Virus record (IMG/VR): IMGVR_UViG_3300033273_000282
Location: 136,310-200,309 of that record
Direction: 5' to 3' (one strand)
Origin: a virus
Taxonomy: Duplodnaviria > Caudoviricetes
DNA: 64,000 nucleotides
Shown here piece after piece: positions 1,991 through 22,328 of the stretch. Positions within the stretch are counted from its first letter, which is position 1. Every line of letters begins with the position of its first letter. Below the pieces are notes generated by a model that saw only the letters and a program-made list of their open reading frames with translations, ran no database searches and was not told the DNA's origin. The position numbers and the translations under genes are program-made.

Positions 1991-2200
1991 ATGGATGTAA
2001 ACCTTATTATTTCTACATTACAACGTAAAGTTTCTGAGTTGACCTTGAGTAACATTATGTTGGAAGCGAAAATTCTCGATTTAACTAACCAGTTAAATAG
2101 TATCAACCAAGAAAAAAACTCACCAGAGAATGCTATAAATGGCAACGAGGATCAAACTCAAAAGCTCAGTAACAGCCAGCCAGGTTCCAACGACTTCTGA
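1991..2200 (+). CDS. small coiled-coil hypothetical protein
   Basis: 69 aa with a heptad pattern (LQRKVSELTLSNIMLEAKILDL); the 3' end overlaps the next gene. Confidence 0.65.
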   Translation: MDVNLIISTLQRKVSELTLSNIMLEAKILDLTNQLNSINQEKNSPENAINGNEDQTQKLSNSQPGSNDF

Positions 2201-5200: not shown

Positions 5201-8200
5201 TGTTGTTAACGCTGTTAACGACTCGATTGGTGCTGGTGTAAGTTTCCAACTTTCTGCTACCCAAGGTGGCGCTGTTATTCCTCTGACTGCCTCTGCTTCT
5301 GGTAGTGGAGAGTCTCAAGCAATCAATGGTGTACAAGCCACCGCAACTTGTACTTTGTCGGGTGATGCTATTGCTAGCGTTACCATCACCGAACCTGGAT
5401 CTTTGTATGACAGAGGTGCTGGTGTTTCTGTCCAAGAAGATGGATCGCAGTCTCCAACAACCGCTGCTACTCTGACAGTTTATATTGGGTCTCCTCTCTC
5501 TGGATTTATCATCAATAGCAGAGGTAGTGGATATAATGCTGCTCCAACAGTAAGCTTTACCAATGCTGCCGTTGATACTTATGGTGCTGGTGCTGCTGCT
5601 ACAACTACCATTGGATTCCCACTCGCCCAAGAACCTGCTGGTCTAACTGTAACTAACGCAGGTGCTGGTTATGCCTTTGCTCCTCAGTATAAACTGAGTG
5701 GTGGCAATCCTGTTACAGAAGCAGTTCTGTCACCAACCCTCGATAAGAAGAAAGGTAATATCAGTTCAGTTGGTATCACTGGTTTTGGTGTTGGATATTC
5801 GTCTGCTCCTACCGTAACATTCTATGGTGGCGCTGGTGACGGAGCCAGACTCACTGTTAATGTTCAATCCTTAGATGGTACCATCACTAATGGTGGTACT
5901 GGATACGTTGCTGGTAAGTACCAGAGTGTAGAACTTGAATATGTTTCTGGTGGTAGTGGTGCCCCTGCTAGCAATGCTACCGCAGACTTCACTGTCGCTG
6001 GTTGGACTGGTAACGTCACCAATGCTGGTAGTGGTTATATTGACGGTCAGTATGACGGTCACGTTATGTACAACGTGCCTGCTGCTACTTATACCGTAAC
6101 GGTTATTACCAACCCTGGAGCTGCGCCACCAGATAACGTATATGTTATCAATGGTACTACCCAAGCTTCTCTTAACTTTGTTGAGGGTAATACTTATCGC
6201 TTTGATCAGTCTGATTCTTCCAACAGTGGTCATCCACTTCTCGCTGGTAGAGAAGATGGTGGAACCCTTTCTACTGATATTCTTGCCGTTAGTTATGGTA
6301 CTCCTGGTGACGCAGGTGCCTTCACTGACATTATCGTAAAGCCAGGTACTGCTGGCGAAGTCCTTGATTATATCTGTAGCAACCATTCCAACATGGGTGG
6401 CAGCGTTACCATTGGTACTGGTGCTGCTGGTAACTATGGTACTGGTCTTTCGGCAAATGTGACCGTCTCAGGCGGACAGATTACTGCTATTGAGTCTGCC
6501 GCTCAAGGTACTGACTACGCTGTTGGTGATACAGTTTCTGTCAATCCATATGCCATGGATACCAGTGGCGCTGGTAGTGGCTTTTTGTGGACTCTTGCTG
6601 CTAATGACACAACTATTAGTGTCGTAGACAACATCAGTTTGACTGGTGGTCCATACGAAGTTGGCATGATTCTGTCGGTTGACGTACAGAATGTCGGCGG
6701 CTCTGGTTCTAACTTTACCTATACTGTATCTAAAGCAGGTTTTGTAAAAGATGTTGACGTAGTTCAGGGTAGTGAAGGTTATGGATACACCGCAGGTGAA
6801 ATTCTCTATCCAAGAATTGACCCAACCACAACAGGCAATGCTTTCCAACTCACTGTAGGTAGCACAACTACAACACCCGTTTGGGAATTTACTCACGATG
6901 GTAGCATTGTAAACTCAGCATTTAATGTTGCTGGTACTAAGGACCCAACTTATGACCCAGGTACTCTGAGTCTCGGTTCTGGTGTTCCTAAGATTGTAAT
7001 GGAGACCGAGTTTGGTAACATTACAACCGACGGTAACCTCACTGTTAAGGGCAATCTTACTCTTGGCGATGATGCTGCTGTTGACACAATTACAGTTGCT
7101 GCTTCTACAACTGCTACTGGTGATACTACTCAGACTGGTGATTTCTCCCTGACAGGAGATATGACCATCGATGGTATCTTTACTCAGTCTGGTGGTGCTT
7201 CCTTCCTTGAGGAATTAACTGGTACCATTGCTGATGGTACTGCCGCTGCTCCTTCTCTGGCTCTTAACACCAGTCCCACCACTGGTTTGTTCTGGGCAGA
7301 CACTGACATCATTGGAATTTCTAATGCTGGTGTTGAGACTGGCAGAATTGGTCCTGCTGCTTATGCCGTTGGAACTAGATTCCAAGTTGGTTCTAGTTCC
7401 ATAACCGCATCTCCTCTCCTCGATGCTAACCCAGCAACTAACCTTGTAAGAATTGGTAGTTCTGCTAGTGGTCTTAGTATCAGTAGCACTGGACTCATTG
7501 AAGGTAATGGTACCGATGCTAATATTGGTATTACACTTCAACCAAAAGGTACAGGCAACGTTACTGTTGTTGGTGGTACTGATAAAGACTTTGTTCTGAA
7601 CGATGGTACTTCTCTCGAACTGTTCAAGGTTGATTTAGATAGTGGTGACGCTAATCTTAAGGGTGGTCTGACTCTTAACAGCAGACTGGAGATTAAAGAT
7701 TACACACTCACTAACCAGTCTCTCGCTACTGCGTCCTTTGGCGAAGTCGTTTCGTTTGATACCAGTGGTACAGCAACTCTGTTTACCGATGGTAGTTTCA
7801 CTAACGTCAACATTACCGCAACTGGTACTGGAAAAGGTACTGGTGGTCAGGTAGACGTTACTGTTGTCGGCGGTACTATCACTACCGTTGTTAAAGCCAT
7901 TTCTGGATCTGCTGGTAGAGACTATGTTCTCGGGGATACAATTACAATTGACCCCGCTATTATCGGTACTGATCCTGCCCAGACAATCACCATCACCGAT
8001 GTTTCTGGTGCTGGTATTGACCTGAAACCACAGGCTCGTAAGAACGTTAGAATTAACGGTACAGGTACATTTGTCGTTCCCGTTGGTGGAACAAATGATA
8101 GACCTGTCGCTGACGATCTCTACGTTGGTGGCATCAGATATAACACAACTACCTCTCAGTTTGAAGGATATAACGGCATTGACTTTGTATCTCTGGGTGG

Positions 8201-9317
8201 TGTTCGTGACGTTGACCAAGATACCTACATCCTTACTGAGGTAAGTCCTGGATCTGACGAGGATACCTTCGAGTTCTACAACGCTGGTTTTAACAGCCTG
8301 AGCATTGATGTTAATACCATCACGCTTAAGACTGCCAGAACAATGGACGTTGAGGGTACACTAACCCTTAATGGAACAACAGGTTTGGATACGCTGGATG
8401 TTCAGCGTAAGTCTACTTCTATTGTCAAAGTAAGAACAACCAAGGATCTGGAGATCACTGGTGGTTTCTATCTCAAGAACCAGTTGGCTGCTGGTACCAT
8501 TGCTAGCTTTGATGATGGTACTCTGGGTGCCTCTCCTGGATCCTTCAACAGCGCAGGTAATGTATATACTCCATCTCAAACATTTAGTGCTGTTGCTGGT
8601 GTATCTGAGTTTGCTGGATCTGGATCCACATTCGATGTTGTAACTAACGCTAGTGGTGGCATTACTAGCATCAGCATTGTTAGTGGCGGTTTTGTTTATG
8701 AGGTTGGTGAAATCATCACCATCCCAGGTGGTTTGCTTGGTGGTGGCGTTGGTTCTGATGTTACCTTCACTGTTGCTAGCATCAGCAACGCTGACGTTGC
8801 TCACGGTAAAGTTAGTGCTCTCCAGAGTGAACTTCGCTTTAACCTGAACGGCGACAAGCAATTCCTCAGCCTTGATTCTAATCTTACAGAAGCTCGACTT
8901 AAAGTCAACAGAGACTATGCCACTGGTGGGCAGAACTATCTGACAGTTCTGGACTCCACAGCAAAATTTGTTGAACTCAATGATGCCAGAGTGGAGGGTG
9001 GTGAGATTACCTCCTTCTCCACAACCGTAACTATCACCCAGTTTGAGAAGACTCAGTATAAGGGTGCTAAGACTTTGATCACTCTTGAGAGTGATGATGG
9101 TAAGGTACACATGTTTGAAGTAACAACCATCTGTGCCGCTAGTGGGACTGTGGCTCACGCTACCGTCACAAACTCCATCACATCCGACAATGATTTGATG
9201 GATGCTTCAGTATCGGTTGCTGGCAACAACGTCCAGATTTCCTTGGCAAAATCGTCGCAGGCAACCTCTTCTTCGACCTTTACAGGTAGATATACAACTA
9301 CCAAGGTCAAGGTATAA
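2139..9317 (+). CDS. giant virion structural protein (pectin-lyase-like beta-helix, LamG domain, cupredoxin-like module, xGxGY beta repeats)
   Basis: 2392 aa; WFVAQNG...PFLTVAKAL...GDSIEIAAGSY beta-helix start; LamG-like block (DFGFGTANFCVETWIY...WVHIAVAR...LDEIRVSKG) at about 3450-4000; GIRYNTTTSQFEGY fibre motif. Confidence 0.8.
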   Translation: MATRIKLKSSVTASQVPTTSDLEDREVGLNITDKKLYVNNNGTIEEVANAEPNPASVTTAMLATDITNGPGATWFVAQNGTDVTTLGGGGANGKHPDTPFLTVAKALSVAQPGDSIEIAAGSYVETFPLTIPDGVHVRGSGIRQTEIKPSGGTNDLNAFVLNGDVTVEDLTIRDFFYNSTNDTGYGFVCANNWNSERSAYIQRVTILNKGSVTSGSDPYGFQQGDAGRGAKLDGSIANSAGIEAAVLFNECTFIVPNSVGLYLTNGIRVEWLNGFIYFADEGIKGVQGATGAFGTGRTRLRLSGTSGTFAAGEEIYQLEDQFQSGTYSRSGTTVTITRNAHGLVNGDRVYADFITGTATDNFYVVGGVTTNTFTLTDSASGSTSGNVTYKKADAYGLITLNDGSYIYLSGKGEGQFTTTVEGGKTAVPNADAQADNSVKKFGTGSLLLDGTGDYVNYASEADFGFGTANFCVETWIYANALSGTQTLLDFRGSAADIAPTLRLNGGTVEYAVGGTTQISGGSLTTGTWVHIAVARFNGSTKLFVAGNQVGSTYTDTNNYGAEKGLKIGAQYDNSTNYNGHLDEIRVSKGTARFTGNFTPSSAEYGTDIFTVLLLHFNANDGATIFIDSGSAIKDIRSNGGDSATGIALVDYNQFGAELRSIASANVYGNKGVVADGNGVKLLLTAHNFAYIGAGQDFTNDGSLAAQSNEVEELNGGRVFYSSTDQKGDFRVGNVFLVDQETGNVNFSSTSTSQEAASITLSDVTGTTNIFPAYIETGNLRLAGNTVSTTSGDIIFDPAGNQDVIYNAEVVFTEGVYYDQPKSANFKTDVPGNLGFYEGQNQRRGGFNGYGVQSDTNFYLTKEQVTTVTVDTEGDGYTGGAATIDADTNPPVVCTATLTLDLQDGALKEINVTAGGDNYVSDPTVGFSAPQDAGGSTPSVSAVLFSYGDVQAITVDDGGAGYAAAPGLVIDAPGGISFDTESDISGNAIQSANHPMRNGDRVVYSQNQGAENIGLTDGTTYFVVNAVNDSIGAGVSFQLSATQGGAVIPLTASASGSGESQAINGVQATATCTLSGDAIASVTITEPGSLYDRGAGVSVQEDGSQSPTTAATLTVYIGSPLSGFIINSRGSGYNAAPTVSFTNAAVDTYGAGAAATTTIGFPLAQEPAGLTVTNAGAGYAFAPQYKLSGGNPVTEAVLSPTLDKKKGNISSVGITGFGVGYSSAPTVTFYGGAGDGARLTVNVQSLDGTITNGGTGYVAGKYQSVELEYVSGGSGAPASNATADFTVAGWTGNVTNAGSGYIDGQYDGHVMYNVPAATYTVTVITNPGAAPPDNVYVINGTTQASLNFVEGNTYRFDQSDSSNSGHPLLAGREDGGTLSTDILAVSYGTPGDAGAFTDIIVKPGTAGEVLDYICSNHSNMGGSVTIGTGAAGNYGTGLSANVTVSGGQITAIESAAQGTDYAVGDTVSVNPYAMDTSGAGSGFLWTLAANDTTISVVDNISLTGGPYEVGMILSVDVQNVGGSGSNFTYTVSKAGFVKDVDVVQGSEGYGYTAGEILYPRIDPTTTGNAFQLTVGSTTTTPVWEFTHDGSIVNSAFNVAGTKDPTYDPGTLSLGSGVPKIVMETEFGNITTDGNLTVKGNLTLGDDAAVDTITVAASTTATGDTTQTGDFSLTGDMTIDGIFTQSGGASFLEELTGTIADGTAAAPSLALNTSPTTGLFWADTDIIGISNAGVETGRIGPAAYAVGTRFQVGSSSITASPLLDANPATNLVRIGSSASGLSISSTGLIEGNGTDANIGITLQPKGTGNVTVVGGTDKDFVLNDGTSLELFKVDLDSGDANLKGGLTLNSRLEIKDYTLTNQSLATASFGEVVSFDTSGTATLFTDGSFTNVNITATGTGKGTGGQVDVTVVGGTITTVVKAISGSAGRDYVLGDTITIDPAIIGTDPAQTITITDVSGAGIDLKPQARKNVRINGTGTFVVPVGGTNDRPVADDLYVGGIRYNTTTSQFEGYNGIDFVSLGGVRDVDQDTYILTEVSPGSDEDTFEFYNAGFNSLSIDVNTITLKTARTMDVEGTLTLNGTTGLDTLDVQRKSTSIVKVRTTKDLEITGGFYLKNQLAAGTIASFDDGTLGASPGSFNSAGNVYTPSQTFSAVAGVSEFAGSGSTFDVVTNASGGITSISIVSGGFVYEVGEIITIPGGLLGGGVGSDVTFTVASISNADVAHGKVSALQSELRFNLNGDKQFLSLDSNLTEARLKVNRDYATGGQNYLTVLDSTAKFVELNDARVEGGEITSFSTTVTITQFEKTQYKGAKTLITLESDDGKVHMFEVTTICAASGTVAHATVTNSITSDNDLMDASVSVAGNNVQISLAKSSQATSSSTFTGRYTTTKVKV

Positions 9318-9340: not shown

Positions 9341-9877
9341 ATGGCGATTAAGAACTTTTCATCGGTAGGGGGGTTTGCCGTAGGCTCAACTGAGGTGCTC
9401 AACACCGAGTTTGAACTTAAAAATATCTCAGCCATCCACATGGTTAGTGATAATTTTAGCGATGCTACAAATGACTTGTACATTGCTAAAAGGACAACCG
9501 ACCCCTCGAATACAGTTCTTCGTTTGAGCCTTGATGGTAGCACTAACATTGATACCAACACGCCAGCTTTGGGACACAATAGTGTGGCGTTTATTAAGTC
9601 TAAAATCTTTGGGCAAGAGCAAAATGACAACACCTATATCCTTGCGGGTATAGATGAGTCAGTGGTTACGGTTGATGCTAGTGGGGTCCCAACACTTCAA
9701 GCAACTTATAAAACTGTTATTCACGAGCATCTGCCTGGTACGGAAACCTGGAGTTTTACTCCAGTAGCATTCCAAATTGGTGCTGCTGCTTACTTCAGTT
9801 ATGACGTTGAGACGGTAACTAATACCTCTACTGTAAAATGGCTTGCGATGATTGAAATCACTAATGTCACAACATAA
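9341..9877 (+). CDS. putative virion structural protein
   Basis: 178 aa, beta-rich composition, between two giant structural genes and after a late promoter. Confidence 0.65.
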   Translation: MAIKNFSSVGGFAVGSTEVLNTEFELKNISAIHMVSDNFSDATNDLYIAKRTTDPSNTVLRLSLDGSTNIDTNTPALGHNSVAFIKSKIFGQEQNDNTYILAGIDESVVTVDASGVPTLQATYKTVIHEHLPGTETWSFTPVAFQIGAAAYFSYDVETVTNTSTVKWLAMIEITNVTT

Positions 9878-9897: not shown

Positions 9898-12800
9898 ATG
9901 AGCTTAAGCCTTAATTCTTCACAGCAAAGACTTGAGGGTAGCGGTCTAGTCCCCCAGGGTCCCTGGACTTCCGCTACTTATGGTAGAGCTAATGGTATCG
10001 TCACTGTTACTTCCGTTGCTCACAGATTAAACGATGAAGAAAGAATCTATATCAAGTTTGGCGAAGACCAACTTTTGAGAACGATTCCTGCTGGTCAGCA
10101 TGAAATCAATGTAGTTGACGACGATACATTTACCATTACTGGTACTGGGCAGAACTTTATTGAGGCTGCTACTGCTTGTTCTTATCGTCTGGTAAGATCC
10201 TTTGTACTTAACGCCACCGACTCCATGGCGTTCACCGTTGGCACTGGAGCCAACGAAGATGATGCTGTCTTCATTAACAAAGGTCCTACTGGAAACATCC
10301 GTGTTGGTATTAACAACACTAACCCTGAGTTTGACCTCGACGTTGAAGGTCAGATCAGAACCACTCGATCCATCATTTCTGATACAGCGCAAATCAGAAA
10401 CCTGGATGTTACCAACGAGTTTGTAACCAAGGGTCTGGATCTGCGTGGTCCTAACCTTATTAACTTTGAGGAAACTGATCCTACCGCTAGTGACTTCGGT
10501 ACGATCTACTATCCTACTGCTGACAACCCTCCACGTCAGACACAGAATAATAGAATTGCTACAACCAAGTTCGTATATGACGTTGCTACTGCCGATAACG
10601 GCGGTCGTGTATACGTATCTTCGGTCCCTGGTATTGGTGATGACGAGAACGATGGTCGTTCCGCCGCTAAGCCAGTTCGTACTATTAAGAAGGCAGCACA
10701 GATTGCCTACTCCCTCCAGCAGGACACTGAAGTACCTGAGTACGTGTCCATCATTGTATCGGGTGGTGACTATGTTGAAGACAACCCAATCTCGCTGCCT
10801 TACAACTGCTCGCTGATTGGTGATAACCTTCGTCGTGTTATCCTGCGTCCTCTGAACCAGGATCGCCACATGATCAAGGCGTCCAACGAGACGTATGCTG
10901 CTGGCGTTGTTTTCAGAGATCACCTCGACAACACTGGAACTCCAGACTGGACCTGGAAGTACGCTTACGTATTTGACGACAAACAGCGTCTGTACTACGA
11001 GCCTGAAATTGCTCCATTCTCCTTCTCTCCTGGTCTTGAGAACCAAGGTCGTAACCTTTTTGCTATCACCTTTGAGAACCATACTGGTGATAACACAACC
11101 CTTCTCGTCGGTTATGCCGTTGAGGGTGGTTCTTCGTCCTCTAGAGGTATCATTGAATCTGTAGTATTCACTGGTCCCAATGCTTCTCCATATTCTTCTG
11201 GTACCATTCAGGTATTGATGAGTGACGATCAGTCAACATTCCTGTTGGCTGAAAAACTATACTATGCTGACATCTACGCCAACATCGTTAAGACAGGTGC
11301 TTCCCCATCTGACTCTCTTGACGTTGCTGACCGTGAATCTCAGAGACCAGAAACTGAGGTTATCAAGCACCAGAGATATCAGCACGTTATTAGTTCTGAG
11401 ACTGAGACTCTGCGCTTTGATGGTACAGATCTTAATAATGTCATTGATACTACTGACAACAGAATTACAATCCCACTCCACAGATTGTATACTGGTGCCA
11501 AGGTAATCTATAAAGTTCAGAATGAAGACGGCGCTCCCGTTGAGGGTCTGACTGATAACACCACTTACTTTGTTCGTGTTATCAATGACAATACTATCGA
11601 GTTGTATGATACTTGGCTGGATGCTACAAGTCTCCAGACTACAACTGGTATTAGAAACCTGAGTGATGAAGGTAGTGGCGATGAGCACACCCTGTTCACA
11701 TGTAGGGTTTCGGTCAACGACGACACTATCTACTTCCCCAACCATGGTCTGTTTACGGGCAATGGTATTTACTACCGTGCTTCTAAGGCAGGCGGTATTG
11801 GTGGTCTTAATGACAACTCTCTGATCTTTGTCTATAGAGTAGACAGCCATCACTTTAAGCTTGCTAATACTCAGGCAGATGCTACCAATAAGAACATTTC
11901 TGGTGAAGATGCTCCAGTAATTCTGCCTCTGACTTCTGAGGGTATTGGTTATCAGCGCTTTGAGAAAGCAATCAACGTTGTTGACATCTCTAGCGTAACT
12001 ACTGACGTTGCTACTCAGCAAGCATACAACGGTATCATCTATGAAGTCACTGCGGCTTCTAGAGTTATTGAAGGTATTAACTTCGTTGGTCATGACTATG
12101 AAGTCGGTCAAGAAGTACAAATCTATGGTCTTCCTTACACCGCACTGAGTTTCGGTAGCGGTGCTAGTGCTACCTATACTCAAACAGCAAACCTGATTAC
12201 AGTTACGGTCTCCAATACAGACCCAACTGTAATGAACGTTCTTTGGCCAAACCTCAAGACCCTTGGTCCTGTTGGTGGTAAGGGCGTTGGTGTTCGCATG
12301 GTCTTTGACGATGCTGGTAACACTGGACATATCAATAAGTCTTTCCACATCGCCACGTATCAAGACGGTACACTGGCTCAAACCCAGTCCGATTTTAATG
12401 CTTATCTGGGCAGCCCATCTAACCTGGGCGCTGGTGTTGCTAGATATAATTCTTCTACTAATGAGGTTTACTTCCTCCTTAGAGCAGTAGACTCTGCTAC
12501 CAGAAGTGGTACAGTAACTGTCTTCGACAACCTTGGCGACTTCAATGGTCGTAAGTACGTTACTCATCGTATTGAGCGTGCTGACGGCTACTCTGTTAAG
12601 TTCGTAACTAGAGGTTCTTGCTCTAGAATTGCTACGGCTCTTGACCCATCTGGTGACCAGCAGGTTTGTTCTGCTACCAACTATGCTTTGATGTCGCTGA
12701 GGAACTCTCCTTATGCGTTCGATAAAGTAGAGTTTGGCGCTAACGTCCAAGAATCTGCTAAGCAAAGAGACGCTGCTGAGACAATCAACAATAACCTCAG

Positions 12801-15800
12801 CTTCATTGCTGAGGAATCTTACGCTTATGTTAAGTCCCAGTACAACGCTGGTACTAACACAAGTTTCTCCAGAACTGGTACATACACCTGCTCTGGCAAT
12901 GTAATGACTGTTACTTGCCCTAGAGGTTCTGCTGTATTTGCCAAGAACTCCTACGCTTTTAACTTCAGCGGTGCCACTACAGACGGTGCTTACATCGTTG
13001 ATGACTGTGAGGATCACAGAAGATTCACAATCATCCTCCCTGCTGCTAGCACGGATTCTGGTACAGTAACTATCACCATCCCTGCTCCTTGGCAGACACC
13101 AAACTCTGTTCCTCCCGTTGACAGAGCTGCTGATGGCACATCTTTGATTCTGGCTAACAAGCAACTGATTGCTCAAGAAGCAGTTGCTCGTATGTTGATT
13201 GCTAACCCAACCTTCAACATTCCAACTGGCAACCAGGCTTGTATTGATGATGCTGTTGACTTCCTGGAAGCAATGGCATACAACCTTGCTTACGGTGGTA
13301 ACGATCAGGTCTATGATGCCGCTAAGTATTATGTTGATGGCGCTCACGTTGTAGGTGAGGAAGATGAATCTGTAGAGGTCTTCAACAACGCCAGAGACAT
13401 TGCTATTCAAGTAATGCGTAACCAGACGGTTACCATCCAAGGTAGCCATGGTCTGACTCAGATTAAAGACTTTACCATCTCCCCCGACTCTGCTAACTCT
13501 GGAGTCGGTGATCGCTTCAGTGATGCTCGCAACCTGATCTACAAGAACAAAGAGTTCATTGCTGAGATCGCTGTCGGCAGATTGAATGCCAACCTCGGAT
13601 ATGAGGTTGTAGATTCCAGACACATGGATGCCCACGATCTGCTGATCGCTAACCTGGACTTCATTGCTGAAGAAGCATATGCTGTTCAGTTGGCTGCCGA
13701 TCCTAATCTGACCACCCCAACAGGTGATCCTCAGGATTGTATCGATGACGTTAGAGACATCCTTACCGCAGTTGCTTTCAACGTACAGCATGGTAGCAAC
13801 AACCAAGTCTGGGATGCTGCTAACCTGTATGTTGGTACACCTCACATTCAAGGTGAAGAAGCTAACTCTATTGCGATTATCAACCACGCAAGAGACATTG
13901 CTAAACTGGTAATCACCAACAGAACTCACACTAAAGTTGGTAGTCACGAATACACCCAGTCCTTCGATACCACCATCACCCACGATCAATCTGCTTCTGG
14001 TGGCGCTTACAGTTCTGCTGATTGCGCTAACGTCCAGAGCACCATTGATTCTCTGATGCTGATCGTTACCGATGCGATCACCAACCAGACTCTGAATGGT
14101 GTTACTAAGACTACCCCTGCTACCTTCTCCGTTCCAACTGGCAACCAGTCCTGTATTGATGACATCATCAATATTCTGGAAGTTGCTTCCTGGAACTTGG
14201 CTATGGGTGGCAACGACTTCACCTATGATGCTGCTAACCTGTACATCACAGGCAACCACGTCGTTGGCGAAGAGAACCACTCCATCTATGCTTTCCGTCA
14301 GGCAAGAGATATTGCCATCGAGTGTTTCCAGAATGAAGATGTAACTACTGGTGGATACACCCAACGCACTCAATTTAAGGATCTTACGATCACTCAGGAC
14401 ACAGGTCTTCCAATCTGTGCTAACGTAATCGCATCACTTACTGCGTTGATGAACGTTGTTGAAGTTGCTATTGATACCCAGTCTCTGTCTTCTTTTACTA
14501 GAACGGATTCTTACGCAAACAGATGTTCTGACACTGCTGCTGCCATCACCTCTCTGACTGGTGTTGTTACAGGTGCTATTGGTAGCACTGGTAACCCTGG
14601 TAGCCTGAGTGGTGTTGTTAGAACATATCCAGTTAGCGACCAACAGTGTATTGATGACGTATATCACGTACTCCGTGCTTGGATGTACGACATGCGTTAT
14701 GGCGGTAACTCCAAGACTATTGAAGCCGCACAGAAGTACATCCAAGGTACTAACGTTAACTACGTTACTAATGAAGTACCTCAAACTCGTGAGGTATATA
14801 CAAGAGCCGAGCAACTTGCTACTCTTGCTATTCGTAACCAACTCCCTCAGGGTGAGTTCTCGCAGATTGCTCCATTCCACAACGCATCTACAACAGTTGA
14901 TAGCAACCAACCCGAGTGTGGTGCTTCTATCACCTTCCTGAATGGTCTTGCTACCATTCTGGATGACGCGCTGTCAACTGCTGGAACATCACTTTCCAAT
15001 GTTACTCTCACCGAGCCAAGCACACTCCTGAAAGATGACAGTGGACTTAAGATTGTCCCAATGTTGGCTGACAACCTTGACCTACCTGTTATTGAGGCAT
15101 CGCCTTACATCCAGAACGCATCGCTGATTTCGTTCCTGGGTGCGTCTGGTGCTGAGATCGATGGTGCTAAGGTTGCTTCTCCCAACGTTCCCCGTCCTGG
15201 TGTATTCCTCGACGGTAACGGTGTTGAGCGTTCTACTTTCCCACCTCAGGGTAAGTCGATGGTTGCCAACGCCTTCACGATCATCTCGGTCAACGGCGGT
15301 GTTGGATATAACATTCTGAACGATGGTTACACCCAGCTGGTGTCGGTCTTTGTCATCTTCGGTGGAGATGGTGTTATTGTTCAGTCTGGTGGTTATGCCT
15401 CACTGACTAACTCTGCTTCTAACTTTGGTACCCGTGCTCTGAAGGCAACTGGTTACCGTTCTGAGGCTTATGAGTTTGACGTTGGTACCGTAACCCAGAT
15501 CAGAAACCAAACAGACAACAACGGTGCTCAAACTGGTCGTCAGATCATTGAGGTCGGTGGTCCTATCACCAACTTCCCTGTTGAAGACTATATCATCAAA
15601 TTTGAAGGATTTAGAAATTCTGATCCTGCTAAGGAATACTTCGTCCTTGGTACGGAACAACTGTCTGGTTCGATCGGTACTCAGATTACCGCTAACGTTA
15701 CTACTAACGACGGTCTGGGTCTTGATCTGATCAGAGAGTCCGATAGCACAAACGTGTCGTTCCAGAACGGCAACCTGGATCTGCTGAACAATGCGGTCAT

Positions 15801-18800
15801 CAAATTCCACAGACCTTCGATCTGTAACTCCTCCTCCCACACCTGGGAATATGTTGGTGCTGGTGATACCTATAACGCTCTGCCTCAAAACGGTGGTGTT
15901 GGTATTCCTGCTAACGAAGCAGTTGAAGAAGCATACGGTCAGGTCTACACCTCTGGTACTAACGAATTCGGTGACTTCAAGGTTGGTGACTTTGTTACCA
16001 TCTTCAACAGAACTGGTAGTATCAGCTTCGTTGGTACTGTTAGTATCTCCGAACTGTCTTCGATTAAGATCGTTGGTGGCTCTATCACCATTACTGGATT
16101 CTCCGACAGTGATGAACTGGGTGGTGCTTTTGCTTCTGACTCCTTGCTGCCTACACAGGCTGCTGTTAAGGACTACATCACCAACAAACTTGGTCCATAC
16201 CTGAACCAGCCATACTCAACCAACGCTGTTCCTAGCGCTCTGGTTCAGTTGACCACTAGCGGTAAGATCAACATTGAACAGATCCCCGCTCTGCGTCCTT
16301 TCAATATCACATCTGTTGCCTCTACTGCCGAGCGTCTTGCTATTGAAGATGCCAGCGCTGGTGACATCGCTATTGAAACAACTTCGACTTCTTATCAAGT
16401 TGCTCCTTCTAGCGTTGATATTGTCAATGAAGTTATCACCATTCCTTCTCACGGTCTTACCACTGGCGATATTCTGACCTACTTCCAAGGTACCTCCAAC
16501 ATTGGTAACTTGGCTGATGGTGCTAACTACTATGTAATTCAACATGCTATTGGTGCTAACACCACCGACTACATCAAACTCGCTACTTCCTTGGCTGATG
16601 CTCAGGCAGGCACTGCGAGAAACCTGACTTCTCAAGGTACTGGCACCCACGTCTTCCGTACTGAAGGTGCTGCTATTTCCTACATTCTGGAAAATGACCT
16701 TGATACAATGTATGCTGCGTTTGTTCCTAACAGCGCATACGTATTCAGCAACAACTCTCTGATTATTGGTTCTCAGTCTACTGCTCAGGTAATCGTCACC
16801 AACTACGAAGGTGGTGTCGTCAGAGACATTCTGATCGATGATCCTGGTTCTGGTTACGCTACTGCTCCTGGTATTAGCATCAGTGCTCCACCTAGCGGTA
16901 CTCAAGCAACTGCGAGTTGTACTATCACTAATGGTCAGGTAGCGTCGATCACCATTACCAACCCTGGTTCTGGTTACTACACAGCACCTACAGTTTCTTT
17001 CACAGGTGCTCCTACAGGCGGTACAACTGCTACTGCTCAGGGCAATGCTGCTAGAATTGAAGCCAGACTTTATGTTGATCTTGCTAATAATATCAAGATC
17101 TCTGACATTGACTTCATTCTTGACGAAGCAAACGTCACCGTAGCCAGCGGCGTATACACCCACGATACCTTCGATATCACAATTACTGAAACCAATCACG
17201 GATTTAGCCAAGGTGATACGGTATATCTGGAATTCACATCTGGTTCTTCGACCAGTGGTTTCTACTCTGTTGATAGTATTGTCAACGCAAACGAGTACAC
17301 GGTTGTTGCTCAGACAGCACTCCTTACCTCTGGTAACTACAACAGAAAGAGAATCGTTGACATCACCAGAGTTGTTAACACCTCTGCTTCTAACGCTCAG
17401 AACTGGACTCAGTTGTCCTCCACTAACATCGATGCTTCTAACATCGTTGCTGGTGTTATTGACCCACAGCGTTTGGCTGACACTGGTGTTGCTAACTCCT
17501 TCACCTTCCTTAGAGGTGATGCTTCCTTCCAGTATGCTGTTCAGTCGATTAAATTTACTACAGACGATGTTCTGGTTGGTGAATCTTCGATTCAGGATAA
17601 CAGCTACATTGAGAAAGTTAATATCGTTAACCCTGGTTCTGGTTATACCGTTGGTACATACCAGAACATCCCAATGGTCGGCGGTAACGTTCAGATCTCT
17701 GAGCAAGGCGTTGCTCGTGCTACCTATACCGTCGCTGACGTTGTAACTGGTGGTATTGTAGATAGCGTAAGTAACCTGTCGTTTACCCCAGGATCTTACA
17801 CCCCCAGCAGCACATTTGACGTTTCTGTTTCTACCACCGATGGCGCTGGTCTCGGTGCTCAGATCAGATTCGTAACTGATGTCAACGGTGATATCGCAGT
17901 TGATATCATTCTCGATGGTGGATCTGGATACAATGGTGGCGATACTCTTGAATTTGACGGTCCACTCTTCGGTGGTACTGTACAGCAGGGCGTAAGCGTA
18001 ACTGTATCCACGTTGACTTCCAGCACAACCCTTGGTGCTATCACTAGCGTTTCGGTTGTTACTCCTGGTACTGGATACACCTCTGACTTTACACTCACAG
18101 TTCCTAGCGAACTGGGTCAACCAGTTCAGGCAGGTAGTCTGACTGCTGTTAAGGGTACATTGTCTCGTTACTACGGTAACGCTTCGTTTGACCTTCTCAA
18201 GGCAAACAACCTTACCCCAACAACCCTCCAGGCTGGCGGTTCGGTCTTCGGTAACTATGGTATCGCCAAGTTCCGTAAGCCAGCTGCTGAGCAAGCGCTC
18301 GCTAACCAAGACCTCGGTGGTTTCGTTATTACCACTGCTGGTGAAGTTACCATTGACCAGGGTCCTGGTTCTAAACTGAACGCTGATAAACTGGATGGTA
18401 ACGAAGGTTCCTTCTACCAGAACGCTACCAACCTTATTGAGGGTATTCTTGATCCTCAGCGCCTGGCAAACACCACCTACAACATCTCGATCTCTGGTAC
18501 AGCAGACTACGCAAACACTCTGTTCTGCGAAACAACTGCTCCATCTTCCGCTAACGCTTCCCTCGTCAGCGCTGCTAACGTAGGTACCCAGCTTGCCCTG
18601 AGATCCAACTCCGTAACTGGTATTCCTACCGATGCTGGTGGAACCAGAGCGGGTATCATGACGTTCCGTCGTTCCGCAACTGGTAACTCTGTTGCTCAGT
18701 TGGCTTTCTCTGCCACCGACAACCTGTACCTGAGAGGCAACTCTGACACTGGTACTGTATATGGTCAGTGGGCGAAGATCTGGTCTTCTGAGAACGATGG

Positions 18801-20799
18801 TGCTCCCGATCCTAACGATCCTCGTCGTGGCACTCTGCCTGGTCCAGATGCCGACTACCTCGATGGTAAGCAAGGTCTCTGGTATCAAGGTGGTTACAAC
18901 ATCAATGACCAGCGTGTTGCTGGTGTCATCGGTGACACTGCTCTGCCCGAGCTGCTGGGTCGTAATAAGTATTTCGCTGACAACCTGTATCTGGTTGCTT
19001 CAAGTGAGACTTACGAACTGTATGTTCCCGACTTCTTCTGTGCTACTGGTACTGCTCCTGTTGGTAACTTGGCTAACAATGGAGTTTATACACTCTACTC
19101 CGATGAAGCCGCTGTCAATAACATCGGTACAATCACCATTCTTGCTAACGGTATTTCCGAAGTTAACGACACCACTACTGGTTCCATCTACACAACGATT
19201 AGAGGTACAATCAGTTTCGTTGGTAACTACACCAACAAAGATATCAAGGTCTTTGGTCCTAACCCTGGTACTAAGTGGACTGTTACTTCTTCCAACCTGC
19301 TGACCACTGGCGCAAGTCAAGTGTTCGCTATGAGCAACACCGCTAACGGTGCTCTGCTTGAAATTGGTAGAACTAACATCGTTGCTACCCCAACCATTGA
19401 CTTTAGATCTGGTGCTCTGGCTTCTGACTATGATGTAAGATTTGAAGTTAGCGGTGGCACCGCACAGAACGGTGAAGGTGTTATCGAACTGAAGACCAGT
19501 TCCTTCACCCTGAACGGCAACACTGTATGGCACTCTGGTAATGACGGTGTTTCCTCTCAGTTGGACGCACACTATGTTGATGGTTACATCCAGAGCTCTT
19601 CTAACACAAACAATGCTCTTGTAAGAAGAACATCAAGCGGCGACATTAACATCTCTGACGTATACGCTGATCAAGGTATCTTCGCCAACACTGGTGAATC
19701 CATCCTTCAACTTGCTGATAGCAACGGTATCAACCTCGGTAAGGCAGGCACTAACGTTCTGTCCCTCAGAGGTAGACAGAATACCAATACTGGTTACATT
19801 GAGTTTGGTAATGATTCCAAGAAACTTGGTTGGAACGGTACTCACCTGTCCTACGGTACAATCTACTTCCGTAACAACAGAATCGGTATTGGCAATGATA
19901 ACCCACAATATGATCTTCACGCCGCAGGTGATATCGTCACTGGTAGCACAAGCAGATCCGCTAATACAGTTGTTCGTGCTCTCTCGGGAGACAGCAACCA
20001 AGCAGGCTTTGAAGCGTACGGTAACAGCCAAGGTACTGGTTACCTGTACATAGGTCAGTCTACTTCTTATGGTGGTGGTATTGCCTATAACGGCGACAAC
20101 TCCCCCGCAGCGTTCGGTTCTGAACAGGGTGACGATATCACCTTCTACAGAAGAAACAACGGCACTGACACCCGTGTCATGAAGTACCGTTATAATGATT
20201 CTACCGTTCACTTCTTCGGTCAGATTCGCTCTCGCGTTGCTACTGGTACCGCTCCCGTCGATGTAGACTCCACTACAGTATGTAATAACCTGAACGCTGA
20301 CCTGCTCGATGGATACCAGGCAAACAACCTGCCTTACCTGTCCAGAGCAGTCAACACCTGGATTACTGATGCGAACGGTCAGCAGAGATTCTACTTCTCT
20401 AACAACTCTCATACATACTTCAGAACTGGTAATGACTTCTTCTTCAGAAATGATTCTGATCAGACATTCTTGTCGATGGATGAGGGTGGTAGAGTTCACT
20501 TCCACGAGCCAGGTAGCAACAGCATTCAGAGCAGCTACAGACTCCAAGTTACTGGAGATAGTGGTCTTAACATTAACGCTTCTGAAAGTCTCTCTAGTGG
20601 TCAGAAGTCTACTGTTCTCAGAGCAACTGGAGACAAGCAGTATCTTGACTCCTATGGTATAATCAAGAGAAACCGTCAGAACATTAGCGAGTCTATCACC
20701 ATCAACAACGGTGATTCTTGTGGATCCTTTGGTCCTATCACTATAAATAATAATGTGACCATTCAAGTCGCCCCAGGCGGTGCCTGGGTAATTCTCTAA
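9898..20799 (+). CDS. giant tail fibre / virion structural protein
   Basis: 3633 aa; split beta-helix, four CIDD helical domains, four L(N/D)ADxLDG-like fibre motifs; C-terminal GPITINNNVTIQVAPGGAWVIL typical of cyanophage fibre ends. Confidence 0.8.
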   Translation: MSLSLNSSQQRLEGSGLVPQGPWTSATYGRANGIVTVTSVAHRLNDEERIYIKFGEDQLLRTIPAGQHEINVVDDDTFTITGTGQNFIEAATACSYRLVRSFVLNATDSMAFTVGTGANEDDAVFINKGPTGNIRVGINNTNPEFDLDVEGQIRTTRSIISDTAQIRNLDVTNEFVTKGLDLRGPNLINFEETDPTASDFGTIYYPTADNPPRQTQNNRIATTKFVYDVATADNGGRVYVSSVPGIGDDENDGRSAAKPVRTIKKAAQIAYSLQQDTEVPEYVSIIVSGGDYVEDNPISLPYNCSLIGDNLRRVILRPLNQDRHMIKASNETYAAGVVFRDHLDNTGTPDWTWKYAYVFDDKQRLYYEPEIAPFSFSPGLENQGRNLFAITFENHTGDNTTLLVGYAVEGGSSSSRGIIESVVFTGPNASPYSSGTIQVLMSDDQSTFLLAEKLYYADIYANIVKTGASPSDSLDVADRESQRPETEVIKHQRYQHVISSETETLRFDGTDLNNVIDTTDNRITIPLHRLYTGAKVIYKVQNEDGAPVEGLTDNTTYFVRVINDNTIELYDTWLDATSLQTTTGIRNLSDEGSGDEHTLFTCRVSVNDDTIYFPNHGLFTGNGIYYRASKAGGIGGLNDNSLIFVYRVDSHHFKLANTQADATNKNISGEDAPVILPLTSEGIGYQRFEKAINVVDISSVTTDVATQQAYNGIIYEVTAASRVIEGINFVGHDYEVGQEVQIYGLPYTALSFGSGASATYTQTANLITVTVSNTDPTVMNVLWPNLKTLGPVGGKGVGVRMVFDDAGNTGHINKSFHIATYQDGTLAQTQSDFNAYLGSPSNLGAGVARYNSSTNEVYFLLRAVDSATRSGTVTVFDNLGDFNGRKYVTHRIERADGYSVKFVTRGSCSRIATALDPSGDQQVCSATNYALMSLRNSPYAFDKVEFGANVQESAKQRDAAETINNNLSFIAEESYAYVKSQYNAGTNTSFSRTGTYTCSGNVMTVTCPRGSAVFAKNSYAFNFSGATTDGAYIVDDCEDHRRFTIILPAASTDSGTVTITIPAPWQTPNSVPPVDRAADGTSLILANKQLIAQEAVARMLIANPTFNIPTGNQACIDDAVDFLEAMAYNLAYGGNDQVYDAAKYYVDGAHVVGEEDESVEVFNNARDIAIQVMRNQTVTIQGSHGLTQIKDFTISPDSANSGVGDRFSDARNLIYKNKEFIAEIAVGRLNANLGYEVVDSRHMDAHDLLIANLDFIAEEAYAVQLAADPNLTTPTGDPQDCIDDVRDILTAVAFNVQHGSNNQVWDAANLYVGTPHIQGEEANSIAIINHARDIAKLVITNRTHTKVGSHEYTQSFDTTITHDQSASGGAYSSADCANVQSTIDSLMLIVTDAITNQTLNGVTKTTPATFSVPTGNQSCIDDIINILEVASWNLAMGGNDFTYDAANLYITGNHVVGEENHSIYAFRQARDIAIECFQNEDVTTGGYTQRTQFKDLTITQDTGLPICANVIASLTALMNVVEVAIDTQSLSSFTRTDSYANRCSDTAAAITSLTGVVTGAIGSTGNPGSLSGVVRTYPVSDQQCIDDVYHVLRAWMYDMRYGGNSKTIEAAQKYIQGTNVNYVTNEVPQTREVYTRAEQLATLAIRNQLPQGEFSQIAPFHNASTTVDSNQPECGASITFLNGLATILDDALSTAGTSLSNVTLTEPSTLLKDDSGLKIVPMLADNLDLPVIEASPYIQNASLISFLGASGAEIDGAKVASPNVPRPGVFLDGNGVERSTFPPQGKSMVANAFTIISVNGGVGYNILNDGYTQLVSVFVIFGGDGVIVQSGGYASLTNSASNFGTRALKATGYRSEAYEFDVGTVTQIRNQTDNNGAQTGRQIIEVGGPITNFPVEDYIIKFEGFRNSDPAKEYFVLGTEQLSGSIGTQITANVTTNDGLGLDLIRESDSTNVSFQNGNLDLLNNAVIKFHRPSICNSSSHTWEYVGAGDTYNALPQNGGVGIPANEAVEEAYGQVYTSGTNEFGDFKVGDFVTIFNRTGSISFVGTVSISELSSIKIVGGSITITGFSDSDELGGAFASDSLLPTQAAVKDYITNKLGPYLNQPYSTNAVPSALVQLTTSGKINIEQIPALRPFNITSVASTAERLAIEDASAGDIAIETTSTSYQVAPSSVDIVNEVITIPSHGLTTGDILTYFQGTSNIGNLADGANYYVIQHAIGANTTDYIKLATSLADAQAGTARNLTSQGTGTHVFRTEGAAISYILENDLDTMYAAFVPNSAYVFSNNSLIIGSQSTAQVIVTNYEGGVVRDILIDDPGSGYATAPGISISAPPSGTQATASCTITNGQVASITITNPGSGYYTAPTVSFTGAPTGGTTATAQGNAARIEARLYVDLANNIKISDIDFILDEANVTVASGVYTHDTFDITITETNHGFSQGDTVYLEFTSGSSTSGFYSVDSIVNANEYTVVAQTALLTSGNYNRKRIVDITRVVNTSASNAQNWTQLSSTNIDASNIVAGVIDPQRLADTGVANSFTFLRGDASFQYAVQSIKFTTDDVLVGESSIQDNSYIEKVNIVNPGSGYTVGTYQNIPMVGGNVQISEQGVARATYTVADVVTGGIVDSVSNLSFTPGSYTPSSTFDVSVSTTDGAGLGAQIRFVTDVNGDIAVDIILDGGSGYNGGDTLEFDGPLFGGTVQQGVSVTVSTLTSSTTLGAITSVSVVTPGTGYTSDFTLTVPSELGQPVQAGSLTAVKGTLSRYYGNASFDLLKANNLTPTTLQAGGSVFGNYGIAKFRKPAAEQALANQDLGGFVITTAGEVTIDQGPGSKLNADKLDGNEGSFYQNATNLIEGILDPQRLANTTYNISISGTADYANTLFCETTAPSSANASLVSAANVGTQLALRSNSVTGIPTDAGGTRAGIMTFRRSATGNSVAQLAFSATDNLYLRGNSDTGTVYGQWAKIWSSENDGAPDPNDPRRGTLPGPDADYLDGKQGLWYQGGYNINDQRVAGVIGDTALPELLGRNKYFADNLYLVASSETYELYVPDFFCATGTAPVGNLANNGVYTLYSDEAAVNNIGTITILANGISEVNDTTTGSIYTTIRGTISFVGNYTNKDIKVFGPNPGTKWTVTSSNLLTTGASQVFAMSNTANGALLEIGRTNIVATPTIDFRSGALASDYDVRFEVSGGTAQNGEGVIELKTSSFTLNGNTVWHSGNDGVSSQLDAHYVDGYIQSSSNTNNALVRRTSSGDINISDVYADQGIFANTGESILQLADSNGINLGKAGTNVLSLRGRQNTNTGYIEFGNDSKKLGWNGTHLSYGTIYFRNNRIGIGNDNPQYDLHAAGDIVTGSTSRSANTVVRALSGDSNQAGFEAYGNSQGTGYLYIGQSTSYGGGIAYNGDNSPAAFGSEQGDDITFYRRNNGTDTRVMKYRYNDSTVHFFGQIRSRVATGTAPVDVDSTTVCNNLNADLLDGYQANNLPYLSRAVNTWITDANGQQRFYFSNNSHTYFRTGNDFFFRNDSDQTFLSMDEGGRVHFHEPGSNSIQSSYRLQVTGDSGLNINASESLSSGQKSTVLRATGDKQYLDSYGIIKRNRQNISESITINNGDSCGSFGPITINNNVTIQVAPGGAWVIL
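20742..20749 (+). promoter_or_regulatory. T4-type late promoter inside the 3' end of the giant fibre gene
   Basis: Exact TATAAATA about 60 bp upstream of the 20808 start. Confidence 0.6.
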
Positions 20800-21560: not shown

Positions 21561-21563
21561 ACA

Positions 21564-22325: not shown

Positions 22326-22328
22326 ACA

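What the first reader, a model, noticed from the sequence alone, without database searches (positions are those of the whole stretch)
13240..14710. Virion repeats match the phycobiliprotein chromophore-binding helix pattern
Four repeats start at Cys1115, 1281, 1419 and 1584 (CIDD). Repeat 1, CIDDAVDFLEAMAYNLAYGGN, aligns without gaps to the alpha-phycocyanin Cys84 segment as I recall it ([21 protein letters not shown]), with identity at C1, D4, L9, Y14, L16, G19 and G20. Established: T4-like cyanophages often carry bilin genes (ho1, pebS, pcyA, cpeT) whose purpose is debated. Inference: these domains have a globin/phycobiliprotein-like fold and could carry a bilin on the virion or mimic phycobiliproteins. 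Caveats: the Arg of CxRD is Asp here, and the Cys could instead form disulfides.
Basis: partly seen in the sequence, partly recalled or inferred. Interest (0 to 1): 0.72.

Follow-up and report, generated by a model that had tools for sequence, protein, structure and literature searches.

The report
Phycobiliprotein-like domains in cyanophage fibre protein
A giant tail or baseplate fibre protein of an uncultured marine cyanobacterial virus carries four tandem domains that are true relatives of its host's light-harvesting phycobiliproteins and keep their pigment-attachment residues, so the virus particle may carry pigment, which nobody has tested.

Summary
CIDD starts at Cys1115, 1281, 1419 and 1584 of a 3,633-aa ORF (window 9898-20799, +).

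The fold inference is also confirmed.
- A profile of 63 domain copies hits only phycobiliproteins (PBPs) among solved structures (best E 6e-6).
- hhalign against 16 real PBPs gives 93.5% probability over 127 columns.
- AlphaFold models superpose on PBP beta chains (Z 11.9 for one domain; Z 16-17, rmsd 2.1 A over 138 residues, for domain 2 plus the next helix).

Each domain is a PBP beta-like globin core without the N-terminal X-Y hairpin. The Cys82/Asp85/Tyr117-type pocket triad is near-invariant across more than 500 copies. Three of the four domains also carry a Cys at the beta-Cys153 position, the site served by T-type lyases.

The genome encodes cpeT but neither ho1 nor a bilin reductase. 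In 17 isolate genomes, all 12 with cpeT have the domain. Bilin-synthesis genes show no such link.

The domain was found only in T4-like cyanophages (348 of 50,697 phage records).

Bilin attachment is untested. All four copies here have Asp where PBPs have the conserved Arg.

This scan has reported the same domain family on other cyanophage DNA. I found no paper describing it.

The parts
9898..20799 (+). Giant ORF P0001 (3,633 aa), a tail-fibre-like virion protein
   Evidence: phrog_5342 'tail fiber protein', 2311 bits. It lies between a gp7-like baseplate wedge gene and three tail-fibre-assembly-like genes. Virion location is inferred from homology and context, not shown.
13111..13602 (+). PBP-like domain 1 (aa 1072-1235). 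Triad Cys1115/Asp1118/Tyr1145. The closing helix (about aa 1206-1232) has no Cys.
   Evidence: Model pLDDT 91.7. VIA Z 11.9 to phycoerythrin beta 5aqd_M, rmsd 2.6 A over 123 residues. Foldseek top 50 are all PBPs. Pfam PF00502 stretch at 1082-1136.
13603..14085 (+). PBP-like domain 2 (aa 1236-1396). Triad Cys1281/Asp1284/Tyr1311. Cys1376 caps helix H.
   Evidence: Model residues 177-336 superpose on PBP beta residues 30-177: Z 16-17, rmsd 2.0-2.2 A over about 138 residues. hhalign puts Cys1281 on beta-Cys82 and Cys1376 on beta-Cys153.
14023..14487 (+). PBP-like domain 3 (aa 1376-1530). Triad Cys1419/Asp1422/Tyr1449. Cys1507 caps its helix H. Its first helix is the helix H of domain 2.
   Evidence: Domain HMM score 201 bits. 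Helix pattern in the four-domain model. Triad kept in 36 of 37 aligned homologous regions.
14524..14988 (+). PBP-like domain 4 (aa 1543-1697). Triad Cys1584/Asp1587/Tyr1614. Cys1543 caps its first helix and Cys1674 caps its helix H.
   Evidence: Domain HMM score 177 bits. Helices. This is the most divergent copy (25% identity to domain 1).
13240..13242 (+). Cys1115 codon, equivalent to PBP Cys82/84. The same position is at 13738-13740 (Cys1281), 14152-14154 (Cys1419) and 14647-14649 (Cys1584).
   Evidence: Cys is present in 99% of 552 copies.
14023..14025 (+). Cys1376 codon, equivalent to PBP beta-Cys153. Like positions are at 14416-14418 (Cys1507) and 14917-14919 (Cys1674). Cys1543 (14524-14526) caps the first helix of domain 4.
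   Evidence: hhalign. Gapless count from the VIA ranges. A weak HMMER sub-alignment in the same register. The Cys is invariant in the 36 extended units of A4.
2139..9317 (+). Context: gp7-like baseplate wedge protein (2,392 aa). It has no PBP-like domain.
   Evidence: phrog_32294, 2071 bits. The six-frame genome scan found no match here.
9341..9877 (+). Context: small virion structural protein (178 aa)
   Evidence: phrog_5449, E 2.3e-41.
20808..23084 (+). Context: three tandem paralogous genes of about 250 aa, tail-fibre-assembly-like
   Evidence: phrog_863, E 1e-51 to 1e-56 for each.

Best explanation
Shown: residues about 1072-1697 of this fibre protein are four tandem, diverged copies of a phycobiliprotein beta-type globin domain (helices A/B, E, F, G, H). 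They lack the X-Y hairpin that PBPs use to pair alpha with beta. The domain belongs to a large family (about 1,500 sequence clusters) found only in giant structural proteins of T4-like cyanophages. Inferred: the ancestor was captured from a host PBP beta gene and kept its ligand pocket, because the three pocket residues (Cys82, Asp85 and Tyr117 equivalents) are near-invariant while the rest of the domain has drifted to about 28% identity. My best reading is that the domains are loaded with host bilin while virions assemble in the infected cell. The Cys82-like sites would be served by host S/U-type lyases or by autocatalysis, as in ApcE. The Cys153-like sites (Cys1376, 1507, 1674) would be served by the phage's own T-type lyase CpeT. 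That would give cpeT a phage substrate. The pigment could act as a light sensor on the fibre. No step from bilin attachment onward is shown.
For: Homology:
- Pfam PF00502 scores 30.4 bits (cut-off 22.2) on aa 1050-1720.
- The A1 profile hits only PBPs among its 60 best PDB matches, best E 6e-6, with Cys on Cys82/84.
- A profile of CxDD copies alone still gives 21 PBPs among 22 hits.
- hhalign against 16 real PBPs: 93.5%, E 2.3e-7, 127 columns spanning helices A to H.

Fold:
- VIA Z 11.9 for one domain and Z 16-17 for domain 2 plus helix H, against Z 5-8 for ordinary globins.

Pocket:
- Cys and Asp(+3) are present in 99% of 552 copies.
- Cys/Asp/Tyr are invariant in domains 1 and 2 and present in 36 of 37 for domain 3, across 37 homologous regions.
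- The Tyr aligns with PBP Tyr117. PMC8717448 names Cys, Asp and this Tyr as the PBP ligand residues.
- 45% of copies have no second Cys, so an intradomain disulfide cannot explain the conservation.

Second site:
- An invariant Cys caps helix H and aligns with beta-Cys153.

Link to cpeT:
- This genome has cpeT.
- All 12 cpeT-positive genomes among 17 isolates have the domain, and all 3 genomes without the domain lack cpeT. Fisher one-sided p = 0.015 by hand.
- In S-PM2, Syn1 and S-RSM4, cpeT lies 0.7-1.5 kb upstream of the giant domain-bearing gene on the same strand.

Host range:
- The domain is restricted to cyanophages, 348 of 50,697 phage records.
Against: - All four copies here read CIDD. 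The Arg that binds a bilin propionate in PBPs is Asp, as in 72% of family copies. This subtype is the more distant one from PBPs (E 0.0095 against 6e-6).
- The genome has no ho1 or bilin reductase.
- Across 17 phages, bilin-synthesis genes do not track the domain: reductase in 5 of 14 genomes with it and 2 of 3 without.
- Two domain-bearing phages, S-ShM2 and P-SSM7, lack cpeT.
- The three genomes without the domain, and the three with cpeT next to the giant gene, may each be one lineage. The association is not corrected for phylogeny.
- I found no report of coloured or fluorescent cyanophage particles.
- The S-PM2/Syn1 homologue (T4-GC 734) is not flagged as detected in the virion proteomics table of PMC3037559.
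- I had no model coordinates, so the size of the pocket was not examined.
Confidence: 0.45

Rival explanations
1. Pigment-free building block. A captured PBP domain became a rigid helical module that lengthens fibre and baseplate proteins. The conserved Cys, Asp and Tyr serve folding, packing between neighbouring domains or trimer contacts, and no bilin is bound.
For: - Copy number varies from 2 to 34 per protein, as expected of a spacer module.
- The module occurs in both gp7-like and fibre-like proteins.
- The X-Y hairpin and the Asp13/Arg91 pair are lost.
- Arg is replaced by Asp in 72% of copies, including all four here.
- The helix after each domain seems to be shared with the next domain, which suggests an interlocked rod.
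- Bilin-synthesis genes are not linked to the domain.
Against: - A purely structural role does not predict 99% retention of exactly the three residues that contact bilin in PBPs while the rest drifts to 28% identity.
- It does not predict an unpaired Cys in a protein exposed to oxic seawater.
- It does not predict the restriction to cyanophages or the tie to cpeT.
Confidence: 0.35
2. The pocket is kept for something other than bilin. The invariant Cys-x-Asp-Asp, GGN, Tyr-Asp-Ala-Ala and Gly-Glu-Glu motifs of the CxDD subtype would bind a metal ion or another ligand. Alternatively the Cys would form interchain or interdomain disulfides after lysis that lock the fibre.
For: - The CxDD subtype has its own invariant acidic residues: C44, D46, D47, G62 and N64 are invariant, and D69 is at 90% or more.
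- The Arg-to-Asp change would repel bilin propionates (established PBP chemistry, from my own knowledge).
- Many domains carry two or more Cys.
Against: - 45% of copies have a single Cys.
- A Cys/Asp/Tyr triad is not a usual calcium or magnesium site.
- The same genome keeps canonical CARD, CKRD and CRRD copies in two other giant proteins, so the two subtypes coexist and probably share one role.
- This reading does not explain the link to cpeT.
Confidence: 0.15
3. Chance resemblance of an ordinary helical repeat to PBPs, with no common ancestry.
For: - Single repeats score below the Pfam cut-off: 15.4 and 13.0 bits for repeats 1 and 2, and nothing for repeats 3 and 4.
- The Pfam model finds nothing in a six-frame scan of the genome.
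- Helical bundles often reach middling Z-scores (note).
Against: - Independent sequence and structure tests all rank PBPs first, and almost only PBPs.
- hhalign covers helices A to H in one register, with both Cys aligned.
- Z 16-17 at rmsd 2.1 A is far above ordinary globins.
- Most family members carry precomputed PF00502 hits.
Confidence: 0.02

Closest known systems
Phycobiliprotein beta subunits (CpcB, CpeB, cryptophyte PE/PC beta; Pfam PF00502)
   Same: - Globin-like core, helices A to H: Z 16-17, rmsd about 2.1 A.
- Cys at position 82, Asp at 85, Tyr at 117, Gly at 100.
- A second Cys at the N-cap of helix H, equivalent to beta-153.
   Different: - No X-Y hairpin, and no Asp13/Arg91 pair for alpha-beta pairing.
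- Arg84 is Asp here.
- The B-E loop is shorter.
- The domains sit as tandem copies inside a 3,633-aa virion protein, not as a free subunit of about 170 aa.
- About 20% identity.
- No evidence of discs, rods or energy transfer.
ApcE (core-membrane linker) phycobiliprotein domain
   Same: A PBP-type domain embedded in a very large multidomain protein (VIA Z 10.7 to 4xxi_A; Z 9.2-9.4 to whole ApcE chains). ApcE attaches its bilin without a lyase (my own knowledge), which is a precedent for self-loading.
   Different: ApcE has one PBP domain followed by linker repeats, keeps the N-terminal helices and sits in the phycobilisome core. The phage protein has arrays of truncated domains in a virion component.
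Photoglobin / photocobilin globin domain (PMC8717448; PDB 8j2y, 8j2w)
   Same: A PBP-related globin that lacks the X-Y hairpin, keeps the pocket Asp and sometimes the Cys, and serves as a light-sensor module. VIA Z 10.5 and 8.4.
   Different: Photoglobins are single domains fused to B12-binding and signalling domains in diverse bacteria. The phage domain scores higher against true PBPs, has the beta-153 Cys and shows no signalling partner.
BBAGs, the bilin-biosynthesis-associated globins of heterotrophic bacteria (PMC10151467)
   Same: Bilin-binding globins related to PBPs but outside the phycobilisome.
   Different: BBAGs are small stand-alone proteins encoded beside bilin reductase genes. 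The phage domains have almost no stand-alone form and no reductase in this genome. I did not compare them directly.

Membership tests
Phycobiliprotein (Pfam PF00502) | Significant sequence or profile similarity to the family | tested here: met
   30.4 bits against a 22.2 cut-off on aa 1050-1720. The whole protein scores 22.1, just under the cut-off. Profile against PDB: E 6e-6. hhalign: 93.5%, E 2.3e-7.
Phycobiliprotein (Pfam PF00502) | Globin-like core of helices A, B, E, F, G, H | tested here: met
   VIA Z 11.9 and Z 16-17, rmsd 2.0-2.2 A over about 138 residues covering chain residues 30-177. These are predicted models, not solved structures.
Phycobiliprotein (Pfam PF00502) | N-terminal X-Y helix hairpin and the Asp13/Arg91 pair that build the alpha-beta monomer | tested here: not met
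   Low-rmsd superpositions start at chain residue about 30. hhalign starts at template column 38. Arg91, invariant in real PBPs, aligns with Thr in domain 2.
Phycobiliprotein (Pfam PF00502) | Attachment Cys at position 82/84 on helix E | tested here: met
   All four domains, aligned. Present in 99% of 552 copies.
Phycobiliprotein (Pfam PF00502) | Arg two residues after the Cys (CxRD), partner of a bilin propionate | tested here: not met
   Asp in all four domains. Arg in 23% of family copies and in two other giant proteins of this genome.
Phycobiliprotein (Pfam PF00502) | Asp three residues after the Cys, and Tyr117 on helix F, lining the pocket | tested here: met
   Asp is present in 99% of copies. 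The Tyr is invariant in A4 and aligns with the PBP Tyr.
Phycobiliprotein beta subunit | Second attachment Cys at beta-153/155 before helix H, the site of T-type lyases | tested here: met
   Cys1376, 1507 and 1674 in three of the four domains. Alignment, geometry. About 40% of family copies have it.
Phycobiliprotein (Pfam PF00502) | Covalently bound bilin | not testable with these tools
   Needs virion or recombinant protein chemistry.
Phycobiliprotein (Pfam PF00502) | Assembly into (alpha-beta)3 discs and phycobilisome rods | not tested
   Unlikely, given the missing X-Y hairpin. No oligomer prediction was run.
Photoglobin / photocobilin | Fusion to, or neighbourhood with, B12-binding and signalling domains | tested here: not met
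   Pfam finds no such domain in P0001. The neighbours are structural genes.

The most novel reading that the evidence does not exclude
The virus particle carries a bilin photoreceptor. The PBP-like domains of the fibre and baseplate proteins are loaded with host bilin, partly by the phage's own CpeT, and light absorbed by them changes fibre conformation. This would be why phages such as S-PM2, P-HM1 and P-HM2 adsorb only in the light. It would be the first photoreceptor built into a virion, and it would give phage cpeT a function.
Probability: 0.2. Interest if true: 0.95.

Novelty: new variant of a known kind. Interest (0 to 1): 0.8.

Why it matters
Two questions about marine cyanophages have stood open for some 15 years. 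The first is why most T4-like cyanophages carry cpeT, a lyase without its operon partners and without a shown host substrate (PMC3037559). The second is why some of them adsorb only in the light, independently of host photosynthesis (PMC6628666, citing Jia et al. 2010).

A phage-encoded, virion-destined protein with intact PBP attachment sites, including the T-type lyase site, makes both questions directly testable with existing isolates.

It is also a clear case of a host light-harvesting fold recruited as a repeated module of virion architecture. It adds a large, X-Y-less branch of about 1,500 sequence clusters to the phycobiliprotein superfamily.

Tried and rejected
- Complex prediction of phage CpeT (A5) with the extended domain (A4) gave no answer: score 0.00, controls not run. 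It counts neither for nor against binding.
- Pfam on single repeats: repeats 1 and 2 score 15.4 and 13.0 bits, below the cut-off, and repeats 3 and 4 give nothing. The Pfam model also found nothing in a six-frame scan of the genome. A family profile was needed.
- Search for stand-alone forms of 62-247 aa: only 12 hits, mostly singleton fragments.
- Co-occurrence with ho1 and bilin reductases: none. This rejects the idea that phage bilin-synthesis genes exist to load these domains.
- Intradomain disulfide as the reason for the conserved Cys: rejected, since 230 of 516 copies have a single Cys.
- Virion proteomics: the supplement of PMC3037559 lists the S-PM2/Syn1 homologue (T4-GC 734) without a detection flag. 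Virion location of this subfamily therefore rests on annotation and context.
- Literature: five targeted full-text searches, plus two on cpeT (29, 84) and one on light-dependent adsorption (49), found no paper describing these domains. Gasper et al. 2017 on phage CpeT is not held, so what I say of it is from memory.
- Model coordinates are not returned by the tools, so pocket volume and Cys-Cys distances could not be measured.
Full report
**What is there.** The finding lies in one ORF, window 9898-20799 (+), 3,633 aa (P0001). The window is the last 64 kb of a 200,309-bp virus record rated complete. It is an uncultured T4-like cyanomyovirus. Its neck and sheath genes are at most about 70% identical in DNA to any isolate, and the closest isolates are P-HM1, P-HM2 and MED4-213. 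Its psbA is 92-94% identical in protein to those of Synechococcus and Cyanobium.

**Gene context.** P0001 matches phrog_5342 'tail fiber protein' at 2311 bits. Upstream lie a gp7-like baseplate wedge gene (2139-9317) and a small structural gene (9341-9877). Downstream lie three paralogous tail-fibre-assembly-like genes. A place in the virion is inferred from this context, not shown.

**Homology by sequence.**
- Pfam PF00502 (Phycobilisome) scores 22.1 bits on the whole protein, against a cut-off of 22.2. It scores 30.4 bits (E 4.5e-7) on aa 1050-1720.
- phmmer of that region against all solved chains returns only two hits, both cryptophyte PBP beta chains, with Cys1115 on Cys82.
- Of 208 homologues found, all of 2,000-6,400 aa, most carry a precomputed PF00502 hit. 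Each holds 2 to 15 copies of the domain.
- A profile of 63 diverse copies (A1) hits only PBPs among its 60 best PDB matches. The best E is 6e-6, over helices B to E.
- A profile built only from the window's own CxDD subtype (A2) is weaker, with best E 0.0095, but 21 of its 22 hits are PBPs.
- I took 16 real PBP genes from a marine Synechococcus and an Anabaena genome. hhalign of the extended phage unit (A4) against them gives 93.5% probability, E 2.3e-7, over 127 columns. It runs from helix A/B to the end of helix H.

**Homology by structure.**
- The AlphaFold model of aa 1072-1201 has pLDDT 91.7.
- Foldseek's 50 best PDB matches are all PBPs or PBP-like fluorescent proteins, at probability 1.00 but E about 0.02.
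- VIA against 48,161 chains ranks phycoerythrin beta first: Z 11.9, rmsd 2.6 A over 123 residues. Allophycocyanin subunits (Z 10.8 and 10.4), the ApcE bilin domain (10.7) and photocobilin (10.5) come next. Ordinary globins score Z 5-8.
- In the four-domain model (pLDDT 76.5), residues 177-336 are domain 2 plus the helix that starts at Cys1376. They superpose on PBP beta residues 30-177 with Z 16-17 and rmsd 2.0-2.2 A over about 138 residues.
- The unit is therefore a full A-to-H globin core without the X-Y hairpin. The helix after each domain acts as its helix H. The repeat alignment shows that the same helix also stands where the next domain's first helix should be. An interlocked rod is my inference from this.

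**The pocket residues.**
- Of 552 copies, 99% keep the Cys and 99% keep the Asp three residues later. The motif reads CxDD in 72% and CxRD in 23%.
- A Tyr on helix F is invariant in A4 and aligns with PBP Tyr117.
- PMC8717448 names Cys, Asp and this Tyr as the ligand residues of the phycocyanin family.
- Across 37 homologous regions the Cys/Asp/Tyr triad is invariant in domains 1 and 2 and present in 36 of 37 for domain 3.
- In 230 of 516 copies this Cys is the only Cys within -42..+115. An intradomain disulfide therefore cannot explain its conservation.

**A second site.**
- About 40% of copies have a Cys 85-100 residues further on, at the N-cap of helix H. In P0001 these are Cys1376, 1507 and 1674.
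- hhalign puts Cys1376 on beta-Cys153.
- A gapless count from the VIA ranges gives the same residue.
- A weak HMMER sub-alignment, 0.8 bits and not significant alone, has the same register.
- Beta-153 is the site served by T-type lyases (PMC10452541).

**What differs from PBPs.** The X-Y hairpin is absent. Asp13 and Arg91 are invariant in my PBP alignment and, from my own knowledge, form the alpha-beta contact. The phage alignment starts after Asp13, and Arg91 aligns with Thr. The Arg of CxRD is Asp in all four copies here. The same genome has two more giant proteins with such domains, outside the window. One is 4,449 aa with about seven copies, including a CARD. The other is 3,796 aa with two copies, CKRD and CRRD.

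**Distribution.**
- tblastn of the array against 50,697 phage records hits 348, all Synechococcus, Prochlorococcus or 'cyanophage' myoviruses plus one marine single-cell virus.
- An exhaustive profile search finds 1,495 sequence clusters at E up to 0.001. The best 150 are all proteins of 730-7,903 aa with 4-34 matched stretches.
- Stand-alone forms are nearly absent.
- BFVD names the matches only 'tail protein', 'structural protein' and the like.

**Link to bilin genes.** This genome has cpeT (144-aa ORF, 61 bits in all) but neither ho1 nor a bilin reductase. I searched 17 isolate genomes.

| Gene | In the 14 genomes with the domain | In the 3 genomes without it |
|---|---|---|
| cpeT | 12 (missing in S-ShM2 and P-SSM7) | 0 |
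| Bilin reductase | 5 | 2 |
| Heme oxygenase | 2 | 2 |

- The three genomes without the domain are P-SSM2, S-SM2 and S-SSM7.
- Fisher one-sided p for cpeT is 10/680 = 0.015, computed by hand and not corrected for phylogeny.
- The link is therefore to the lyase, not to pigment synthesis.
- In S-PM2, Syn1 and S-RSM4, cpeT lies 0.7-1.5 kb upstream of the giant domain-bearing gene on the same strand, and that gene is followed by gp12. These three phages may be one lineage.

**Light-dependent adsorption (a lead only).** P-HM1 and P-HM2 do not adsorb in the dark. S-PM2 adsorption needs light but not host photosynthesis. P-SSM2 and the podovirus P-SSP7 adsorb in the dark (PMC6628666). The first three carry the domain. 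P-SSM2 and P-SSP7 do not. Five phages are an anecdote.

**Reading.** Homology and fold are settled. Whether bilin is bound is open. I put 0.45 on bilin loading, with host lyases or autocatalysis at the Cys82-like sites and phage CpeT at the Cys153-like sites. I put 0.35 on a pigment-free structural module and 0.15 on another ligand or cross-link. The Arg-to-Asp change in every copy of this protein is the main reason for caution.

**Prior notes and literature.** Searches of the held literature found no description of these domains. Earlier notes of this scan report the same family in at least eight other genomes and on this same stretch. I treated those as leads and tested the claims myself.

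Noticed in passing
window 23650-25218 and 25211-26776 (+): Two adjacent genes of about 520 aa each match tryptophan halogenase (phrog_2928, E 6e-133 and 3e-150). This is a tandem prnA-like pair directly after the fibre gene cluster.
   Followed up: no
window 20808-23084 (+): Three tandem paralogues of about 250 aa match the C-terminal part of a 'tail fiber assembly' family (phrog_863). They may be alternative fibre tips or chaperones for P0001.
   Followed up: no
window 32504-37645 (+): A 1,713-aa protein has a subtilase (Peptidase_S8) domain at aa 274-574, E 6e-25. This is unusual inside a structural gene block.
   Followed up: no
own genome G000:C1:35022-46409 (+), outside the window: A 3,796-aa protein has two canonical PBP-like domains (CKRD, CRRD). 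Downstream of them are seven copies of a different repeat with the motif F-x-C-x-x-D ... Y-P-R, spaced about 75-115 aa apart. That repeat is unexplained.
   Followed up: no
own genome G000:C1:114041-127387 (+), outside the window: A 4,449-aa protein has about seven PBP-like domains in two blocks, one with a canonical CARD motif. The phage thus has about 13 such domains in three giant proteins.
   Followed up: partly
L001:532-1110 (+), own genome, just upstream of cpeT: A 192-aa ORF lies directly before cpeT. In S-PM2 and Syn1 a 2OG-Fe(II) oxygenase gene lies between cpeT and the giant PBP-domain gene. I did not test whether this ORF is of that family.
   Followed up: no
L020 (S-PM2 record AJ630128, 165928-177267): The record lists 16 tRNA features inside the coding sequence of the giant gene S-PM2p218. 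This looks like a coordinate error in the record's annotation rather than biology.
   Followed up: no
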